Of a stretch of DNA of 64,000 nt, positions 4,560-64,000 are shown piece after piece. The DNA is from the human T2T-CHM13v2.0 reference genome, Homo sapiens. The notes below the pieces were generated by a model, which worked only from the letters and a program-made list of their open reading frames with translations, made no database searches and was not told the origin of the DNA. The position numbers and the translations under genes are program-made. Positions within the stretch are counted from its first letter, which is position 1. Each line of letters opens with the position of its first letter. The stretch lies in the NCBI RefSeq assembly GCF_009914755.1, contig NC_060926.1, one strand, 5' to 3'.

Positions 4560-5608
4560 TTTTATATATTTTTAAATTATACTTTAAGTTCTGGGATACA
4601 TGTGCAGAACATGCAGGTTTGTTACATAGGTATACATGTGCCATGGTGGTTTGCTGCACCCATCAGCCCGTCATCTACATTAGGTATTTATCCTAATCTT
4701 ATCCGTCCCCTTGCCCCTAATCCCCCAACAACCCCCAGTATGTTATGTTCCCCTCCCTGTGCTCGTATGTTCTCACTGTTCAACTCCCACTTATGAGTGA
4801 GAACATGCGATTTTTGGTTTTTTGTTCCTGTTTTAGTTTGTTAAAAATAATGGTTTCCAGGTCATAAATGTCTCTGCAAAAGACATGAACTCAACCTTTA
4901 TATGGCTGCATAGTATTCCATGGTGTATATGTGCCACATTTTCTTTATCCAGTCTAACATTGATGGACATTTGGGTTGGTTCCAAGTCTTTGCTATTGTG
5001 AATAATGCTGCAATAAACACACGTGTGCATGTGTCTTTAGAGTAGAATGATTTATAATCCTTTGGGCATATACCCAGTAATGGGACTGCTGGGTCAAATG
5101 GTATTTCTGTTTCTAGATCCTTGAGGAATCACCACACTGTCTTCCATAATGGTTCAACTAATTTACACTCCCACCAACAGTGTAAAATCATTACTATTTT
5201 TCCACATCGTCTCCAGCAACTGTTGCTTCCTGACTTTTTAATGATCCCCATTCTAACTGGAGAGAGATGGTAACACATTGTGGTTTTGATTTGCATTTCT
5301 CTAATGACCAGTGATGATGAGCTTTGTTTCATCTGTTTGTTGTCCACATAAATATCTTCTTTTGAGAAGTGTCTGTTCATATCCTTTGCCCACTTTTTGG
5401 TGGTGTTTTTTTTTCTTGTAAATTTGTTTAAGTTCCTTGTAGATTCTGGATATTAGCCCCTTGTCTGATGGATAGACGGCAAAAATTTTCTCCCATTCTG
5501 TAGGTTGTCTGTTCACTCTGATGATAGTTTCTTTTGCTGTGCAGAAACTCTTTAGCTTAATTAGATCCCATTTGTCAATTTTGGCTTTTGTTGCAATTGA
5601 TTTTGGTT
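4560..5608 (-). mobile_element. 5'-truncated L1PA6/7-like element with 12-bp TSD
   Basis: attatactttaagttctgggatacatgtgcagaac... 3'UTR; ORF2 C-terminal peptides (5129-5516, [10 protein letters not shown]..., CWRRCGK...HCWWECKLV). TSD aaacacatttta at 4548-4559 and 5609-5620; minus-strand TT/AAAA target. Confidence 0.97.
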
Positions 5609-14092: not shown

Positions 14093-14869
14093 GCTAAAAT
14101 GAACTAGAGTTTCCGAGATGTCAGAAAAACCTCATTGTTTTCCTGACAATGTGTCTTCAAATAAACCAGACAGATGCATTCACGTGCAGCCTGTTTTCCT
14201 TCATTTCAACACTTTGGAGGAGGAATCCATCAATGTGATTTAAGAATAGATCTGCATATTAATGTTTTCTATCATAAGGAGGAAATAAATACAGTAAGTG
14301 TAGCACATGTAATTTAATGATGATGTTATTCACAGAAGGTTTATACAAAAGTCAAATGATAGATTGGCTGCTCTGAATAATAGTTGGAAAAAATTATAAG
14401 TCTTGTTCTAAATTTTAAAAGTAAACTTATAAGCATCAAGGAACAATAAAGCTGAAGTGATTAGCAGTGTAAAAATATCTGTCCTGTGATTTAACTTGTC
14501 AACATGTATGAAATTTAATGGTAAATATGAAAGACGTATAATGATTAGGAGAGTATGAACTGCTATTCTTAAGGATGGCTTCTCTTTCAGTCACTTTTTT
14601 CTAGGTATCGGAGTCTATAAAAAAACAATTTATTTCTTTTAAAAGATAATTACCGTTAACCTAGAGTTTCAACTCTACTCTTCATAATGACAAAATGTCT
14701 TTCTCTATTAATTAAAGAAAAGCAGGTCACTGGACCACATCTTTTTTTTGTTTGTTCCAAATAATATTTACCTAGCCTTTATTGTCACAGTAAGAGAGGT
14801 GAACCTTAAAAATTTCAAGGTTTGTTTGACTATAAGAAATTGCTGCTCAAACCTTCAGATAATAGATAA

Positions 14870-15363
14870 TTTTTTTCTTTTACTTTAACTTCTGGGATAC
14901 ATATGCAGAACATGCAGGTTTGTTACATAGGTATACACGTGCCATGGTGGTTTGCTGCACCTATCAACCCATCATCTAGTTTTAAGCCCCGCATGCATTA
15001 GGTATTTGTCCTAATGCTCTCCCTCCCCTTGCTCCCCTCCCCCTGACAGGCCCCAGTGTGTGATGTTCCCCTCCCTGTGTCCATGTGTTGTCATTGTTCA
15101 ACTCCCATTTATGAGTGAGAACATGCAGTGTTTAGTTTTCTGTTCCTATGTTAGTTTGCTGAGAATGATGTCTTCCAGCTTCATTCATGTCCTTGCAAAG
15201 GACATGAGATCATTTTTTATGACTTCATAGTATTCCGTGGTGTATATGTGCCACATTTTCTTTATCCAGTCTATCACTGATGGGCATTTGGGTTGGTTCC
15301 AAGTCTTTGCTATTGTCAACAGTGCAGCAATAAACATAGGTGTGCATGTGTCTTTGTAGTAGA
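14870..15363 (-). mobile_element. 5'-truncated L1PA7/8-like 3' end
   Basis: tactttaacttctgggatacatatgcagaac...tcatctagttttaagccccgcatgcattagg; possible TSD taatagata (14860-14868) / tagtagata (15357-15365). Confidence 0.95.
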
Positions 15364-31240: not shown

Positions 31241-31576
31241 TTATTGTTCATCTCCTCATTTTATTAAAAAGGCAAAAATGGATAAAAAGATTAAAGGTAT
31301 AAGTAAGCAAAATGAAGTAACTCATTATTCAATTATATCGCACAGATCTATCTGTGATTAACATTTTGATGCATATGCAAGCATTCACTTATGCAAAGCC
31401 TACACAGGAAAAAAAAAGTAGCTTACAAGACATTCATAAAATCTGTTTAATTCAGTAATGATAATCAAATTAGTGTAAATTAAAACAACATTGGAAATTC
31501 TTTTTAAAAAAAACAAATCTGGCAATGAGTCTAAAAATCTCACAATATATAGGGTTGGTAAAATGTAAATACAAAA

Positions 31577-31580
31577 GTGT

Positions 31581-31635
<55 letters not shown>

Positions 31636-31653
31636 CATACATACATATATATG
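31577..31653. repeat. Compound (TG)/(TA)~20/(CATA) microsatellite
   Basis: Seen directly; degenerate (TCTA)n follows at ~31706-31740. Confidence 0.95.
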
Positions 31654-32778
31654 TAGTAAAATCCCATTAATTTTCTTTTGCATTCCCTTTTCTCTCTCTG
31701 CTGCCTCTATATCTATGTATCTATCCATCTACCTATCTATTTGTATTCTCACATTGTATGTATATTGAAAAAAATATCTCTTCAACAGCTAGGCTAGTCG
31801 TTCTCAATAACTTTTCTTTAATCCACTGCTCATTTTGCTTTTTAGCTAACTATTCTGTTTGGGGTTAGGCAGAAGAGAAGAGGGAAATGTATGGTGGAAG
31901 GAAGAGAGGACAGGTGAAGAAAAGATAATTGATGAGCACATGATGTCTAGTAAATCCACACTCTCCGGTAAGGATCCTTACTCTCCGAAACTACCCTTCT
32001 CTTAGTCCAGGCTCTTGTCCAGTCTTTCAGAGTTCAAAGACTTCTCGTGTTCAGCAAAGCATTTAAAGTGGATCCCCCTTTCTCATTGATTTGTGGCTTC
32101 CTTTTAAAGATTTCACAGTCCCAGAGCTTTGTTGTCAATGTATTAAATAAAACCTAGCTCCTCCGTCAGTGCCTAGGGATTTGTCAATTACCTTGCAGTC
32201 ATTTGGTCTTTGCTAATTGCAAAATAAAGAGACCGCTGCCTTTATTGGCCTCCCAAAAGGCTTTCCTCTCCTCTACATACTACATTCAAGGTTGTATTAC
32301 TCTCTATTTCACTTTTTAAAGTTGAAGAAATTCAATTTTTTATAACTCAGAAACATGTTTAAAGCTTTTTGTCCTCCTTAAAGACACCCTTCTCCTTGTC
32401 AGGAATCTCCACCACACAGCTAATTAGTCTCTTGGGCAGATTGGTCAGGTTGCCCAAGGAGTAATAGCATAGACCTTGTTTCTTTCCTAGTCATTCTGGA
32501 AATTAAACTTTATTCTATCTTGTATAAGTTCTAGTAACTTTTTTATCTATCTCATTTTTTATTTTCTGTTCTTTCTGTTACTAGCTGGTGACGGACATGG
32601 AGACGGAAAAATTCAAGAAGTATGAACGGTGCTAGTAATTCCCTCCAGAGGCAAATATTTAAAAATTCCTCCAAGAAATACAACTCTGGAAAAGTTGTAA
32701 GAGCAGATCTAACTTTAGAGAAATTTTAGGCCATTCAGGTGGACATCCAGATGGCTAAAAACCTATTATTGGAACCTG

Positions 32779-35964: not shown

Positions 35965-37375
35965 TGAACAACTTTTATACCCTCTTTCTGTGTGCAGTGT
36001 GGTAGTGTAAACACATCCATAAATAAAACTGTTGTCCCTAAACTCATGGCATTTGAAATCCCGGATGGCATGTTTTGTGTCTGATTTATTATGTCACCTT
36101 TCACTAAGAATTTCACCAAATGATATAATGGAATAAGTATAATACAAAAAAGGTTGTTAACTCATAATTCTGTGTTTCCTTTTCCTGCATTTCCTTTAAA
36201 AAGCAGTCTATAGTATTGTGTAAATATTTTTATCAATATTTTAAAAGACTTTACCATTTAACCAAATAAATATGGGAATGCTTTCCAGGACACTAAAACA
36301 ATGAAAGCATGTTTTGACTTGTTGAGGAAAATGGGAAATATCATCAAGTAAGATATAAATTAATTTTTTCGTAAAAAGTGCTATACTTAATGGTAGTTAC
36401 AAGGAGACTCTGACAAAGAGTTGGAAGATCAGTGACACTGAATTACCATGATTAGAATATGACTTCTATGATATCTATCTTGAAAGCAGTAATTACACAG
36501 AATTCCAGGTCATGCTACAGGCAATTTTCTATTTTATTATATTTATAAAATAGGAGAGTACTAGTTGTCCCAGTTCCCAATTAGATTGAATAGCTAACTT
36601 TTTGTCTATTTTTAAAAAATATTCTTATATGGGGGAAATATTTTCTCAGAAATGTCAGCTATCTGCTGCATAATTTAGAAAATATGTGTTATATTTAACA
36701 TGTACACTTTCCTGAAGGTAGACATGCTATTAACTTTTCCCATTGTCTAAAGTTTTCAGATGAAAAGAACTCTTCTTCAGTATTTGGAACACTCTGCCCA
36801 AGAAAATACTGATTTTCCTGGGAGACAAGAGGTATTGCAGACCATATTACTTCTGATGAGCTCTAATATATACTTTTGACGGTATGCTCATTTTTATTCT
36901 ATCAGTGCTAATACAGGCGAATAACCCATTTACGTAATTTTCCATCTTTCGACAAGATGGATGAATAGGCTTAATGTATAAAGGATGACAAAATGAAATA
37001 TAGAAGTCTGGATAGAATAGAATAACCAAAGTAGTGCACACAATTACTAGCATCTGTCAATCTTTTCCCATCATTTGTCATTTATTCTGTTACTAATTCT
37101 CACAGCTGAGATTATGTGTCATGGGATAAATGTAATGGAAAGTTACTGTTCAGCTTTTCTTAAATAAAGGATCAATGAAACATACATTCAGAAACAAATG
37201 CCTGTCATTTTCACATTTTCAAGATGGAGCCTAATGTACTGTCCAGTGCTTTTTGCCCCACTAGGAACATGGCACTTAAGAGGATAATTTCCAGTTGCTT
37301 AGAGAAAGGTTTTACCATCCGTTTAAAAAAATGCAGTTTCTAAAGCTGAATTACATAATTATTAACACATTTGCT

Positions 37376-37403
37376 CATATATATACATATATATACATAC
37401 ATA

Positions 37404-37441
<38 letters not shown>

Positions 37442-37520
37442 CATATATATATATACACATATATATACATACATATATATATATACATATATATATATAC
37501 ACACACATACATATATATAT
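37376..37520. repeat. Long alternating TA/CA compound microsatellite
   Basis: About 145 bp of (TA)n interspersed with CA. Confidence 0.95.
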
Positions 37521-38296
37521 GGATTATTTTGACATACCAGAGCATTATCAATGGTTTAACAGAATTTAAGCCTATTTTGGCTTTATCACTCCTGAAATTA
37601 AAAAATAAATGGTTTTTGAGCTAGTAACGTTTAACTTGAGAACACTAAAAGGTTTGAAACTATGCACTGATTATATTATTATTGTTACAACATATGGAAC
37701 ATTTTATAATATTAACTAAACTCCTACTATCTATACAAACTTGTAATAAAACAGTACCATTGTGATACACACATATAGTGTATATGTGTCACATACATAT
37801 TTATAATGGAAATCAAGCAAAAGCCAAATAACTATCCAAGTATATATCCACTTTCATCTCTAATAAAAGTGGAATTTCATATCACTACAAAGGATATATT
37901 TTTCAGTAAGTTGTGCTAGAACTTGGGAGAAAAATTGTGAAATTTGAGAGAATTAATTCAAATAAATATTCTGACATACTATTATAATTTTCCAAGAATA
38001 TTTCTGGAGTATAGTCAACAATGTACTACAAAAGTTGTTAAATTTTGCACAGTTTTTGTCTTTTCAAACCATTTTACTCTTTTTTTTAATTGGAGGAAAT
38101 CACATGGAGAAATAATTATGCACAACAGTAATCATCTTGGCATGTATTTTAATAATAATATCTTTTTTCTCTTTTTTATATTTATGTTCTATTTCTTGGT
38201 ACTAAAAACTCATCAATTAAGTGGCACTTTGGAGAGTGATTAGCTATCTATAAATATCCTATGAGCTATGTACAGTGATATGCTGATCAGTGGTTA

Positions 38297-59470: not shown

Positions 59471-60925
59471 AATGTAACTTAGATCAATTTTGTTGATTTA
59501 GAGAAATATGATATCAAAAGCTCATGAATTTAAACAAAACCTCTGTTGAGAAATTATTAAATAATGTTAATCATGAGAGATTCTGTGTCCTACTAATGAA
59601 AATTGTGTCAATCTGCATAATTTTGCTTAGAGTCCTATAAAGTGTTCTTTTCAGGTTACCTGAACAAAGACTTATTTCAGAGGTAAAATAAAATTAAGCG
59701 AGGTTACTTCTTTGAAAATTATGGAGAAAAGACAACTCTTAATAATTGTATAAGATCAAGTAAAATTTTGCTTAATATTAGTAAAAATTCACAGGAAAAA
59801 TAAAAAAATGACTATAAAGCTGCACTAATTCTTAAGTGCGAACTTAATACAAATATTCTCTTGCCTAGAAATATGAAAAATGTCATAAGCATTTATGACC
59901 ACAGTAGGATGTTGGGAGGAAAATACCTCTGGTAATAATCTTTAGGAGCAAATGCACACTGTTAGTAATGATTGATGAAAAGTTTCCTCACAATCTGCTG
60001 AGAAAAAAATGTTAAAATGAAATTAAGTGTAGTTATAGAAAACAAAATTACATAATTGACATAACAGAGTTATTGGCCTGAGAGTCATACCTATTGCAAT
60101 CTATTTCTTAGAGGCTCACTCCTGCAGATGCTTGGCTGGAACTTGTCAATGTTTCTATACATACAGGAAATGATAAACAGCACATATCAAGCCTGGCAAA
60201 TACCTATGCTGAGAAAGAAATGCTGGTCCTCATCAAGGGAGAAGGAGCCAGAGCTAAAGGACAGGGTGTTGTCAAGTGATTTTGAGTATTTATGCAGAGC
60301 TAGATTTTTTTAGATAGCTTTCTCAGAATGTCTTATTTCAAAGTCAGTAAAATTTTAATTAACCTAATTTCCCCTGTTCTGATTTCATGTTCCCCCAGCA
60401 ACTATCAATTTATGAAGCTCAATCAAATGGGCTTCAAATATTTATATCTCTTTGACACTGATTTCTAGAAGTGAATTTTTACTTTCAGTCCTGATTTTTT
60501 TCTTGATTCTCATGCAGTTCAAATACAGCAGTAGAGCTCATTGATTGTAAATATGTTGGTGTACCTACCAGTATAAATGCTTTATTTCTCACTGTAAGTT
60601 TGATGATTTAAAAATCTCTTATTTGCCTTAGTTTGTTGAGATGTTTTATTCAGCATGACTCAGTCCTCCAGCTCAGGCCTCATCACGCATGAACACTGAT
60701 GAAATATGAATCTGAAACCCTAAAATGGTGTGACAAAATTGAGTTACTGTCTCATGAGATCCACCAAAGCTCAAACCAGTTTTCCTTGATACCATACTGC
60801 TCCCACTTGCTGATTCAGTCTACTAATTTATACCATCACTGTTTACAAAGAAGAACCCATGAAGTCACATTTAAGAATATGTGGTTGGTGACAGAGCTAG
60901 AGAAAATTGAACTAACATTCTATGG

Positions 60926-61454
60926 CAGGGGTCCCCAACTCCCAGGTCACAGAGCAGTACCAGTCCATGGCCTGTTAGGAATTGGGCTGCACAGCAGGAG
61001 GTGAGCACCGGCCAGCAAGTGAAGCTTCATCTGTATCTACAGCTGCTCCCTATAGCTTGCATTGCTGCCTGAGTTCCACCTCCAATCAGGTCAGTGGCAT
61101 CATGAGATTCTCAAAGAAGCATGAACCCTATTGTGAACTGCGCATGTGAGGGATCTAGGTTGCACACTCCTTATAAGAATCTAACGCCTGATGATGTTAC
61201 TGTCTCCCATCACCCCAAGATGGGACTGTCTAGTTACAGAAAAACAAGTTCAGGGCTTCCACTGATTATACATTATGGTGAGTTGTATAATTATTTCATT
61301 ATATATTACAATATAATAATAATAGAAATAAATTGCACAATACATGTAATATGCTCGAATCATCCTAAAACCATCCCACCCTGCTCCCCATGTCTGTGGA
61401 AAAATGTCATCCATGAAACCAGTCCCTGGTGCCAGAAATGGTTGGGGACTGCTG
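60926..61454. mobile_element. MER1A hAT-Charlie element, full length, 8-bp TSD
   Basis: Termini caggggtccccaac...gttggggactgctg; TSD ttctatgg (60918-60925) / atctatgg (61455-61462); 529 bp. Confidence 0.93.
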
Positions 61455-61558
61455 ATCTATGGAGTATCTGTTATATACAATACACTGCCTGCTATCCCAT
61501 TCAGCTTATTCAGTTTAATCCTTCCTATTTCCTACATAAGTTTAGAGGGTTACATCAC

Positions 61559-62517
61559 CAGTCTAACTAGAGAGCTGAGGGATTTGGATCATACTCACAG
61601 CTGCCATGCAGTATCTTCCCAGGGCACCTACAGCTGGGGTTAATAATGATGTGTGGCCCTTCTACTATCTATATTATAATCAATTTGAGTGCTGCTTAAA
61701 CAAACAGATCCATGATGCACACACACCACCCCTCCCCAACACACACAGAACAACAGTAACAACAATAATGTCAACAACCAACTATGAAGTCAAAAACTTC
61801 AGGATGAGACCCAGGAATCTGCACATTTAACAAGAAACCCCAGGCAATTTTTGTACACATTGAAGTCTGACATCCACTGCTATAAAATTTACGTGTATCC
61901 CGTTGGAGAGAAAAAAAACCCAAAAAAACAAAAAACACAATGTGACAAAAACAGTCACTGTCACAATCCCTAGTTACCCTTCCTTCAGTTTTTCCTCTAT
62001 ATTTTCTGTTTTTTTTTTTTTTCCTTAACATCAGGCGTACATTGAGATTTCTTTCAGTCAGTCCTGACTTATAGCCCCTTTGTGGTTATGACTCATCCCA
62101 AACACTTTCAAACTGAACTGCAGCAAAATCAATAAATCAACGTAATTAAACCACTATCATAAAGAATATTACTCAACAGTATAAGAACTGTAACTACTCG
62201 CCCTAACATGTGTTTCTTTCTATTTCCTATCAGTCTAACTTAGAGAGCTGAGTGCAGACTCCTGGGTCTCATCCTGAAGTTTTTGACTTCATAGATGGTT
62301 GTTGATATTATTGTTGTTACTGTTGTTGTGTGTGTGTTGGGGAGGGGTAGTGTGTGTGCATCATGGATCTGTTTGTTTAAGCAGCACTGAAATTGATTAT
62401 AATATAGATAGTAGAAGGGCCACACATTAACATTAACCCCAGCTGTAGGTACCCTGGGAAGCTACTGTATGGCAGCTGTGGGTATGATCCAAATCCCTCA
62501 GCTCTCTAGTTAGACTG
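61559..62517. repeat. 266-bp inverted repeat pair (61559-61824 / 62252-62517) with 427-bp spacer
   Basis: Manual alignment: 13 substitutions, no gaps, in 266 bp (~95%). Also visible as near-identical opposite-strand ORFs 61606+ and 62240-. Confidence 0.98.
61688..61880. mobile_element. MER5A-like MITE with an internal CA/CAA-rich tract
   Basis: cccaggaatctgcacatttaacaagaaaccccaggcaatttttgtacacattgaagtctgacatccactg matches the MER5 terminal half. Confidence 0.7.
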
Positions 62518-64000
62518 ATACAATTCTCAAGTGAACAGTTTCAGAAAATATCTTGATAGAATCTCAAGATGTACTTGAGCAACTGGTACACAGTAATGAT
62601 GGCTGTGACTTAAGACTCTCTAGGGGCCAATCGTAGAGCTGCAAAAAATGCTTAAATCCAGGAAGGAAAACACAAAAGGAAACAAAACAAAAAAAAAAAG
62701 CGTTGGTGAGGAGTTTGCAAATGATCATGTGAGGCAGATAAACAGTTTCTCTCAATTTTTAAAAATCAACATATATTGAGCCTAGGCGGGCCAAAACAGA
62801 GATACTCCATTTTGAATCATGACAGGAATAGAAGGGCATGCGAAATTTCTCCAGCTTTTCTACCTTTCAGATTTTAAAAGTTGATTCACTTAAGCTGTTA
62901 ATACAGTAGAAACAATCTACATGTATCTGGCATACTGAATTTTCTTCACCCAGATAATAGTGAATTCAATTTTGTCTTTCACGGCACACAGTTTAGAATT
63001 TCTCTGTCTGTACCTATTTTCCACTTGTCTCAGGATCTCAACTAAAAGTCATTTTGAACAATTATATAATGTAGATTCCAAACTTTTATAAAACTGCTTC
63101 AACACACCATTTTTAGGTGGTTTTCATTCTACCTTAAAACTAAGTTGCTACAGTTTAAAAGTGCACAAGGGCAGAGTGACAGCCCTATATACTATGGAAA
63201 GAATGAAACAGACAATGATAATAGCTTCTTTCAGCTAGAAAGCTGTACAATAGACTGTTCTTCTTTAGACATTACTGAAGGTAGACTGAAAAATATCACC
63301 TAAGTGAATTTTTGGTTTCTTAGCTTCACTGGACTTGATGAATTGACAAAAGCCCCAGATAATGGCTGATACGGAGAAAGAGTGGGAAAGTATGTCCGTA
63401 GATGGAAAGCATGACCCTGAATCAAAACTGTGAATGAGCCTGTGGGGACAGCTGGACACAGGAGAATGTTTTGCCCTCATTAGTGAGCAATTTCTTCTTT
63501 TGGACTGAACATACAGTCTATCTCCTTCTCAGCCTTAAGGGATTTCTAGAAAAAAAAAAAGGGTTAGTAATTGTGTGGTCTTCTCCATTACAAAGATGCT
63601 GATATTTCAAATTCAAAGGGTTACAATAAATGAGAGCTTGGGAGAGTGTATGCAAACCTGTTAGTAGAAAGGTAGAGCATTGCTTATGCCCTTGGTCTTG
63701 TCAGTTGTATCTACAACACGTAAGTAGTAAAGGGGTTGCTAAGCAACTTCTAACTTTTAACATTAAGTGTGCTCAGGGACTGCATACTGCAAAGGCACAG
63801 TATTGCCCATTGGTAGAAGAGGATGCCCTAAGTAAGATGAAGTGGAAGGTATCTCTTTATTGTCCTTTCAGTTTGTTGTTTGTGGAACAGGAAGCAAAAG
63901 AGAGATTCATGTTTTGGTTTGTTCTGGAAACTTATAGAACTCAAGAGTAGTAGAATGACTAAAATTATTTTTGTCATTCCTACATCTTGTTTTTCTTCAT

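What the first reader, a model, noticed from the sequence alone, without database searches (positions are those of the whole stretch)
61559..62517. 266-bp, 95%-identical inverted duplication of local sequence around a 427-bp spacer
Seen: 62252-62517 is the reverse complement of 61559-61824, with 13 mismatches and no indels. The unit includes ~130 bp of apparently unique DNA plus part of an old MER5A, so it is not two independent insertions of one repeat. The left arm runs on into the rest of the MER5A (61825-61880) while the right arm stops mid-element, so the right arm is the derived copy. Inference: the arms are far more alike than typical neighbouring Alus. If transcribed they would fold into a ~266-bp dsRNA stem (ADAR or Dicer substrate). 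At the DNA level they could drive recurrent inversion of the spacer and arm-to-arm gene conversion.
Basis: partly seen in the sequence, partly recalled or inferred. Interest (0 to 1): 0.8.

Follow-up and report, generated by a model that had tools for sequence, protein, structure and literature searches.

The report
Old local inverted duplication in LRRTM4 intron
A 266-base stretch inside an intron of the human brain gene LRRTM4 was copied backwards about 430 bases downstream, probably some tens of millions of years ago, most likely by a DNA-copying slip; it is a real but fairly ordinary structural scar whose only likely activity is folding the intron RNA into a long double-stranded hairpin.

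Summary
61559-61824 and the reverse complement of 62252-62517 match at 253 of 266 positions without indels, around a 427-bp spacer. In the 3.1-Gb assembly the arm has exactly these two copies and the spacer one, so it is not a dispersed repeat.

The left arm's inner edge lies inside an old dispersed repeat that runs on to about 61879. The right arm stops mid-element, so the right arm is the derived copy.

New here: a direct copy of the arm's outer 21 nt (22 nt, one extra T; 62231-62252) abuts the right arm's inner end, preceded by a 13/14 match to sequence upstream of the left arm. The derived block (about 62216-62517) is therefore a direct piece plus an inverted piece from one source. That fits serial template switching during replication or repair.

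Divergence of 5% suggests roughly 25 My (13-44). The longest perfect tract is 39 bp, with no conversion signal, so recurrent inversion is unlikely. RNA from either strand folds into a stem along the whole arms in silico. Editing, small RNAs and polymorphism could not be tested. It is a new member of a known kind, of low-to-moderate interest.

The parts
61559..61824 (+). Left arm, the source copy. About 100 bp are not recognisably repeat, followed by part of an old dispersed MITE-like repeat with an internal CA/ACA-rich stretch.
   Evidence: alignment; 2 genomic copies only; repeat profile hits 61658-61717 and 61786-61896.
61825..61879 (+). Continuation of the old dispersed repeat beyond the left arm, ending in ...CCACTG. 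It is absent next to the right arm, and it marks the left copy as the source.
   Evidence: A motif spanning 61808-61834 has 66 genome matches at 2 mismatches or fewer, against 0 for the reversed control. The profile alignment runs through the boundary to about 61879.
61825..62215 (.). Single copy in the genome.
   Evidence: 1 genomic match, itself.
61521..61534 (+). Segment p: 14 nt upstream of the left arm that recurs (13/14) just before the derived block.
   Evidence: alignment; 0 of 62,785 other window 14-mers match the 60 nt upstream of the left arm this well.
61535..61558 (+). Segment q: 24 nt between p and the left arm, with no counterpart on the right and no local template. It is either a later insertion in the source copy or was skipped during copying.
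   Evidence: best local match elsewhere scores 8; shuffled-query mean 9.75.
62216..62230 (+). Segment p2 plus T: a direct 13/14 match to p.
62231..62252 (+). Segment a2: a direct copy (22 nt, one extra T) of the outermost 21 nt of the arm, abutting the inner end of the right arm. G at 62252 is shared with the arm (1-nt overlap).
   Evidence: the motif occurs only 3 times in 3.1 Gb, all three at this locus; no other site within 2 mismatches.
62252..62517 (-). Right arm, the derived inverted copy. It ends inside the old repeat.
   Evidence: the profile hit at 62251-62293 on the minus strand stops at profile position 185 of 308.

Best explanation
This is a fixed, old, local templated insertion. 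A block of about 300 bp (about 62216/62231-62517) was written into the intron about 400 bp downstream of its source. It consists of a short direct copy of the source's left end (a2, and possibly p2) followed by a 266-nt reverse-complement copy of the source (61559-61824).

The most likely mechanism is serial template switching of a nascent 3' end during replication or break repair. That is FoSTeS/MMBIR-like, or the 'four-point' template-switch model type 3-2-1-4 with one extra switch. The joins used little or no homology: 1 nt (G) at a2|arm, 0-3 nt (ATA) at arm|downstream flank, and a 13/14 homeology at p/p2.

Since then the two arms have drifted apart neutrally to 5%, which is roughly 25 My at 1e-9 per site per year (95% range 13-44). 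There is no sign of gene conversion.

The locus lies in an intron of LRRTM4 (minus strand) and of LRRTM4-AS1 (plus strand). Both primary transcripts would therefore carry a near-perfect hairpin with a stem spanning the 266-bp arms and a roughly 430-nt loop. That is a plausible nuclear ADAR substrate, removed with the intron and with no evidence of function.

Shown: the anatomy, the copy number, the polarity of copying and the in-silico fold. Inferred: the mechanism, the age, transcription-dependent dsRNA and editing.
For: - Exact anatomy.
- Only two genomic copies of the arm and one of the spacer.
- The left-arm boundary lies inside a dispersed repeat that continues only on the left (66 matches against 0 in the control; E 2.6e-10 through the boundary, with the right-arm hit truncated).
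- The 21/22-nt terminal motif is present 3 times in the genome, all at this locus, with the third copy direct and abutting the right arm.
- The p/p2 match is position-specific: 0 of 62,785 other 14-mers do as well.
- No CpG in either arm, mismatches spread evenly, longest identical tract 39 bp against a null mean of 60.
- Predicted folds of -555.5 and -575.9 kcal/mol, with the arms paired along their whole length.
- Literature, four-point model: a reverse-complement copy from nearby creates an inverted repeat in one event (PMC5453318, passages).
- Literature, template-switch hairpins: such events gave thousands of hairpins in primates, enriched in introns (PMC10710096, abstract).
- Literature, MMBIR: it gives multiple template switches at microhomology, with segments in either orientation (PMC2621351, passages).
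- Literature, dsRNA: editing sites lie mainly in inverted repeats, and intronic dsRNAs are removed by splicing (PMC12695637, passages).
Against: - No outgroup sequence was available, so the ancestral state is inferred, not seen.
- The 24-nt segment q between p and the arm has no counterpart in the derived block. It needs either a fourth switch or a later insertion exactly at that spot.
- The event is an odd size. Published short template-switch events span tens of bp (PMC5453318), and the MMBIR switches discussed span tens to hundreds of kb (PMC2621351).
- Microhomology at two of three joins is only 1-3 nt, which chance could give.
- Two of two mismatches that I could polarise against the repeat profile are derived in the right arm (read from the alignments). 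If copying was error-prone, the age is overestimated.
- No RNA data were seen. The LRRTM4 edited regions listed in PMC12238832 are at other coordinates as far as I can judge, and the one supplementary file held as text has no occurrence of LRRTM4 or of the coordinate prefixes I searched.
Confidence: 0.62

Rival explanations
1. Inversion with staggered breaks. The ancestral locus carried [spacer + arm] in the opposite orientation, next to the present downstream flank. An inversion whose right breakpoint was a pair of staggered nicks 266 nt apart then left the arm duplicated in inverted orientation on both sides of the inverted segment, with a2 as junction filler.
For: This model gives exactly an inverted duplication flanking an inverted segment. 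It keeps the left-arm|spacer junction (the repeat's continuity) and the right-arm|downstream junction as ancestral. That is compatible with everything seen.
Against: It does not explain why the junction filler is a precise direct copy of the arm's outer end, nor the p/p2 match. It needs filler synthesis on top of the inversion. The flanks on both sides are unique sequence, so no repeat continuity could be used to test it.
Confidence: 0.15
2. Two or more separate events. For example, first a direct local duplication of p-a-B to the downstream site, then an inversion or fold-back within the new copy, then loss of q. Alternatively, a double-strand break repaired by polymerase-theta-type end joining with snap-back synthesis. 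Under that reading the a2 piece is a copy made by fold-back to the 5' end of a displaced 266-nt strand.
For: The right-hand block is itself a stem-loop unit: a2 (62231-62252) and the outer end of the right arm (62497-62517) form a 21/22-nt terminal inverted repeat, extended by TAT/ATA. Run-off copying to a free 5' end would explain why a2 and the arm end at the same nucleotide. Papers on snap-back synthesis in end joining turned up in a search (listing only).
Against: It needs more steps than one serial-switch event. From recall, templated insertions by end joining are usually a few to a few tens of nt. The p/p2 match is not explained by run-off copying.
Confidence: 0.13
3. A mobile element. 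The right-hand block, with its 22-25-bp terminal inverted repeats and TA...TA flanks, would be a Tc1/mariner-like MITE, and the left arm a second, degraded copy. Alternatively the arms are copies of an unrecognised dispersed repeat.
For: The block is bounded by ...CCTA|TCAGTCTAAC ... GTTAGACTGA|TACA..., that is, terminal inverted repeats flanked by TA on both sides.
Against: The arm has only 2 copies and the terminal motif only 3 occurrences in 3.1 Gb, all at this locus, with none elsewhere within 2 mismatches. The left copy has no second terminal repeat and instead runs on into an unrelated old repeat. TA flanks are expected by chance about 1 time in 16 or more in AT-rich DNA.
Confidence: 0.03
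4. Assembly artefact, such as a chimeric or fold-back read.
For: None found. Reads could not be inspected.
Against: From my knowledge of long-read artefacts, fold-back chimeras give near-identical arms with no long unique spacer. Here the arms differ at 13 sites and enclose 427 bp of single-copy DNA, and the junction carries further diverged pieces.
Confidence: 0.02

Closest known systems
Template-switch mutations under the four-point model, type 3-2-1-4 (Loytynoja & Goldman 2017, PMC5453318; Monttinen et al. 2023, PMC10710096)
   Same: A fragment from just upstream is written in reverse complement into the nascent strand, creating an inverted repeat or hairpin in one event. These events occur in primate genomes and are often intronic.
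   Different: Published events are tens of bp; this one is 266 nt with a roughly 430-nt loop. An extra direct piece (a2, and possibly p2) sits at the junction, so at least one more switch is needed than the model's two.
FoSTeS / MMBIR complex rearrangements (Hastings et al. 2009, PMC2621351)
   Same: Several templated segments from nearby, in both orientations, joined at little or no homology.
   Different: The scale is hundreds of bp within about 1 kb, rather than kb to Mb. It is a fixed neutral variant, not a disease CNV. The microhomologies cannot be verified without the ancestral sequence.
Inverted Alu pairs (IR-Alus) as intronic ADAR substrates
   Same: Arms of about 300 bp a few hundred bp apart in an intron, predicted to form a long intramolecular dsRNA.
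   Different: The arms are a locus-specific duplication with only 2 genomic copies, so pairing is exclusive to this site. Complementarity is 95%, against 70-88% for the other listed inverted pairs in this window.
Catalogued human inverted duplicates (Chen et al. 2017, PMC5398296)
   Same: It fits their definition (arms 10-10,000 nt, spacer 0-1,000 nt), under which they count 4,315,271 in the human genome.
   Different: It lies in their longest arm class, the top fifth, which begins at 36 nt. Their functional tests covered intergenic cases, whereas this one is intronic.
Inverted repeats that mediate polymorphic inversions by NAHR (Aguado et al. 2014, PMC3961182)
   Same: Inverted arms flanking a unique segment.
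   Different: In that study's methods, highly identical inverted repeats were defined as at least 1 kb and at least 97% identical, and a 782-bp tract of 99.9% identity is cited as a likely breakpoint. Here the arms are 266 bp at 95%, with perfect tracts of at most 39 bp.

Membership tests
Template-switch mutation (four-point model) | A fragment copied in reverse-complement orientation from nearby sequence | tested here: met
   253/266 identity to the reverse complement of sequence 427 bp upstream.
Template-switch mutation (four-point model) | The whole change is explained by two switches (one reverse-complement fragment between two forward fragments) | tested here: not met
   An extra direct 22-nt copy (a2), and possibly the 14-nt p2, lies between the spacer and the inverted fragment.
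Template-switch mutation (four-point model) | The ancestral or outgroup sequence lacks the inverted copy | not testable with these tools
   No primate genomes are available. Polarity is inferred only from repeat continuity.
FoSTeS/MMBIR complex rearrangement | Multiple templated segments, in either orientation, from nearby sequence | tested here: met
   Direct a2 (plus or minus p2) and an inverted 266-nt arm, both from 61521-61824.
FoSTeS/MMBIR complex rearrangement | Microhomology at each join | tested here: inconclusive
   There is a 1-nt overlap (G at 62252), a possible 3-nt ATA, and a 13/14 homeology at p/p2. The ancestral flanks are unknown.
NAHR-competent inverted repeat (recurrent inversion or gene conversion) | Uninterrupted identity of at least the minimal efficient processing segment (134-232 bp in cell assays; 300-500 bp in meiosis; PMC2583991) | tested here: not met
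   The longest identical tract is 39 bp. Caveat from the same paper: exchanges with under 50 bp are seen between close alpha-globin repeats.
NAHR-competent inverted repeat (recurrent inversion or gene conversion) | Evidence of conversion: unusually long identical tracts, or arms more alike than their age allows | tested here: not met
   The maximum tract of 39 bp compares with a null mean of 60; P(max >= 39) = 0.96.
NAHR-competent inverted repeat (recurrent inversion or gene conversion) | Both spacer orientations present in the population | not testable with these tools
   No pangenome or read data.
DNA transposon / MITE | Dispersed multiple copies in the genome | tested here: not met
   2 copies of the arm and 3 of the terminal motif, all local.
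DNA transposon / MITE | Terminal inverted repeats and a target-site duplication | tested here: inconclusive
   The right block has 21/22-nt terminal inverted repeats and TA/TA flanks. The left copy has only one end.
   That the stretch is a dispersed repeat is shown: 66 motif matches against 0 in the control, and a profile of 11 copies hits at E 2.6e-10. The family name could not be checked because no repeat library is available; it is recalled only.
ADAR-edited intronic inverted-repeat dsRNA | A long intramolecular duplex in the transcript | tested here: met
   The predicted stem covers the whole of both arms on either strand. This is in silico only.
ADAR-edited intronic inverted-repeat dsRNA | Transcription, and clustered A-to-G changes in RNA | not testable with these tools
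   The intronic position in LRRTM4 and LRRTM4-AS1 comes from the supplied annotation. LRRTM4 introns are reported as edited elsewhere (PMC12238832), but nothing was seen for this site.
Known RNA families (miRNA and others, Rfam 15) | A match to a covariance model | tested here: not met
   No hit in the arms at E <= 1. The spacer has only two weak sub-threshold hits, at E 0.16-0.25.

The most novel reading that the evidence does not exclude
The hairpin is not just a scar. It would be a catarrhine-specific long hairpin-RNA locus in the LRRTM4 / LRRTM4-AS1 introns that is hyper-edited, or diced into small RNAs, in neurons. It would affect processing or levels of the host transcripts, and it would be an unusually large example of a template switch creating a structured RNA element in one step.
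Probability: 0.05. Interest if true: 0.6.

Novelty: new member of a known kind. Interest (0 to 1): 0.27.

Why it matters
The junction anatomy is cleanly resolved: a direct piece plus an inverted piece from one source, with minimal homology at the joins. That makes the locus a tidy natural example of template switching at a size between the short template-switch mutations (tens of bp) and the CNV-scale MMBIR events (kb to Mb).

It also gives LRRTM4 pre-mRNA a locus-specific, near-perfect dsRNA with a stem spanning the 266-bp arms. That could serve as a non-Alu test case for ADAR editing in brain. Nothing here suggests a phenotype or an instability risk.

Tried and rejected
- Dispersed-repeat explanation: rejected by the whole-genome searches.
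- Transposon reading of the right-hand block: considered because of its terminal inverted repeats and TA flanks. Rejected for lack of any other copy.
- Local template for the 24-nt segment q: none found.
- Testing whether the insertion site lies inside another repeat, which would have proved that spacer and downstream flank were once adjacent. Both flanking 27-mers are unique at 3 mismatches or fewer, so the test was uninformative.
- Generic significance test of the p/p2 match: 17% of random segment pairs do as well anywhere. Only the position-specific test is significant.
- Rfam: nothing in the arms.
- RNA-editing evidence for this site in LRRTM4 papers: the coordinates given in the text are elsewhere, and the supplement search was empty.
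- Sensitivity limit: the whole-genome DNA search is not sensitive to old repeats. It found only 1 distant copy of the repeat part. Repeat status therefore rests on the motif count and on my own 11-copy profile.

Full report
**Observation**

The inverted repeat is real and sits exactly where stated. The arms are 61559-61824 and 62252-62517, 266 nt each, 95% complementary and 427 nt apart. A base-by-base comparison gives 13 mismatches (8 transitions, 5 transversions) and no indels. Similarity ends abruptly at both outer and both inner edges.

Across the 64-kb window, 35 inverted pairs of 80 nt or more were found and the 25 longest are listed. This pair is the most similar of those listed. The other 24 are 70-88% complementary, and the best direct pairs are 90-91%.

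**Copy number**

The window's own 3.1-Gb assembly could be searched.
- The full arm finds two places only, itself and the other arm.
- The outer 142 nt also finds two places.
- The 427-nt spacer finds only itself.

The tool warns that counts for repeats are lower bounds and that it is not sensitive to old repeats. What this shows is that there are no other copies of high or moderate identity. That is enough to reject the refutation 'a known dispersed repeat with many ~95% copies'.

**Which arm is the copy**

A 27-nt motif straddling the left arm's inner boundary (61808-61834) has 66 matches in the genome at 2 mismatches or fewer. The reversed control has none. The boundary therefore lies inside a dispersed repeat.

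I aligned 11 other genomic copies (L010-L020), built a profile and searched 61001-63000.
- The profile matches 61786-61896 at E 2.6e-10. The confident part runs to ...CCACTG at 61879, that is, straight through the arm boundary.
- The right arm matches only at 62251-62293 on the minus strand (E 5.9e-4), and the match stops at profile position 185 of 308.
- The repeat's left half is weakly seen at 61658-61717 (E 0.019) and, in the right arm, at 62358-62412 (E 0.37).

The part of the arm outside the repeat is about 100 bp or less, rather than about 130. The name MER5A agrees with my recollection of that family, but it could not be tested here.

**New feature at the junction**

Immediately inside the right arm, 62231-62252 is a direct copy of the arm's outermost 21 nt, 22 nt long because of one extra T. 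The G at 62252 is shared with the arm.
- In the whole genome this motif occurs three times, all at this locus: the left-arm end, the right-arm end and this junction copy.
- No other site lies within 2 mismatches.

Just before it, 62216-62229 matches 61521-61534 at 13 of 14 positions. A match that good somewhere between two segments of these sizes is not rare (17% of random pairs). At this specific position it is rare: 0 of 62,785 other 14-mers of the window match the 60 nt upstream of the left arm at 13/14 or better.

Between 61534 and the left arm lie 24 nt (q, 61535-61558). They have no counterpart on the right and no template nearby.

The derived block is thus p2-T-a2 followed by the inverted arm. 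Taken alone it is a stem-loop unit with 21/22-nt terminal inverted repeats, extended by TAT/ATA, and flanked by TA on each side.

**Mechanism**

The block is a direct piece plus an inverted piece, both templated from one 300-bp source and written about 400 bp away. It is joined with a 1-nt overlap at one join, 0-3 nt at another and a 13/14 homeology at the third. This is the pattern expected from serial template switching of a nascent 3' end.
- The four-point model describes how a reverse-complement copy from nearby creates an inverted repeat in one event, type 3-2-1-4 (PMC5453318, passages).
- The same group reports thousands of such hairpins in primates, enriched in introns (PMC10710096, abstract).
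- MMBIR describes repeated low-processivity switches at microhomology, with segments in either orientation (PMC2621351, passages).

This case differs in scale from both, and it needs one more switch than the four-point model.

One concrete version fits every join.
1. A minus-strand nascent end leaves the downstream flank and primes at the source's left end.
2. It copies a-B for 266 nt.
3. It switches strand at a 1-nt match and copies a' and p'.
4. It returns to its original template where p' finds the near-identical p2.

This version requires that q was not yet present in the source, which makes q a later insertion. That is a testable prediction, not a result.

**Rivals**

- An inversion with staggered breaks gives the same arms and keeps the same junctions ancestral. 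It does not explain the direct a2 and p2 pieces.
- Multi-step or snap-back repair explains why a2 and the arm end at the same nucleotide, but it does not explain p2.
- A transposon reading fails on copy number.
- An assembly artefact is unlikely, given 13 differences and a unique 427-bp spacer. Reads were not available.

Only outgroup genomes can separate the first two rivals from the favoured model, and none could be reached with these tools. The two flanks of the block are unique sequence, so repeat continuity across the insertion site could not be used either.

**Age and concerted evolution**

The Jukes-Cantor distance is 0.0505, with a Poisson 95% range of 2.6-8.4%. At 1e-9 substitutions per site per year that is about 25 My (13-44). 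The rate is my own assumption, and at 0.5-2.2e-9 the point estimate moves between 51 and 11 My.

Neither arm contains a CpG. The longest identical tract is 39 bp, shorter than the 60 bp expected for 13 randomly placed mismatches (P of a tract at least this long = 0.96). There is therefore no conversion tract.

Of the mismatches I could polarise against the repeat profile, 2 of 2 are derived in the right arm (read from the alignments). That is too few to say whether copying was error-prone.

**DNA-level consequences**

Efficient homologous exchange is reported to need uninterrupted identity of roughly 134-232 bp in cultured cells and 300-500 bp in human meiosis. Tracts under 50 bp sufficed between closely spaced alpha-globin repeats (PMC2583991, passages).

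In the study of inversion-mediating repeats that I read, the methods define highly identical inverted repeats as at least 1 kb and at least 97% identical, and a 782-bp tract of 99.9% identity is cited as a likely breakpoint (PMC3961182, passages).

Secondary-structure fragility falls as the spacer lengthens. In eukaryotic cells, replication stalling was seen with a 12-bp spacer but not with a 52-bp spacer (PMC7999016, passages).

With tracts of at most 39 bp and a 427-bp spacer, recurrent inversion, conversion or cruciform-driven breakage should be rare. They are not impossible.

**RNA-level consequences**

According to the supplied annotation, the site is intronic in LRRTM4 (minus strand) and in LRRTM4-AS1 (plus strand). 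Folding 61540-62540 as RNA pairs the arms along their whole length on either strand: -555.5 kcal/mol for the plus strand and -575.9 for the minus strand. No shuffle control is given at this length.

Editing sites lie predominantly in inverted repeats. Intronic dsRNAs are edited in the nucleus and removed by splicing, so they are not sensed by MDA5 (PMC12695637, passages).

LRRTM4 is repeatedly listed among genes with edited intronic regions in brain (PMC12238832, PMC12993761 and bioRxiv 10.1101/485086; passages). The coordinates printed there are not this site as far as I can judge without a liftover. The one supplementary file held as text contained none of the searched terms, and other supplements may exist that I could not see.

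Rfam finds no family in the arms. Editing is therefore a reasonable expectation, and function is unsupported.

**Comparison and novelty**

Inverted duplicates with arms of 10-10,000 nt and spacers of up to 1,000 nt number 4,315,271 in the human genome. The top fifth by arm length starts at 36 nt (PMC5398296, sections 8 and 12). The class is therefore common, although a 266-nt, 95%, two-copy case sits in its long tail.

It is a new member of a known kind. Its main value is the clean junction anatomy and its use as a non-Alu dsRNA test case.

Noticed in passing
window 60899-60975 (-): A weak match to the mir-645 precursor model: 31.5 bits against a gathering score of 90, E 0.00079, covering the full model length. 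It is well below threshold and may be repeat-derived.
   Followed up: no
window 61535-61558: A 24-nt segment (q) sits exactly between the two pieces of source sequence that are adjacent in the derived copy. It has no local template. It may be a later insertion at the old switch point.
   Followed up: partly
window ~61380-61460: By eye, another old DNA-transposon-like fragment (...CAGTCCCTGGTGCCAGAAATGGTTGGGGACTGCTG...) lies about 100 bp upstream of the left arm. The family was not identified.
   Followed up: no
window 31531-31683 and 37319-37533: Two long TA/CA-rich microsatellite tracts about 5.7 kb apart. They account for many of the low-identity direct and inverted pairs.
   Followed up: no
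window 4568-5046 vs 14869-15363: Collinear direct repeats of 110-183 nt at 80-91% identity, about 10.3 kb apart (families D3, D5, D9). They are probably two copies of one interspersed repeat, or a diverged local duplication.
   Followed up: no
L008 (G000:C12:65551782-65551824): The only distant genomic hit of the DNA search with the repeat part of the arm (88% over 43 nt). It shows how insensitive that search is to old repeats.
   Followed up: no
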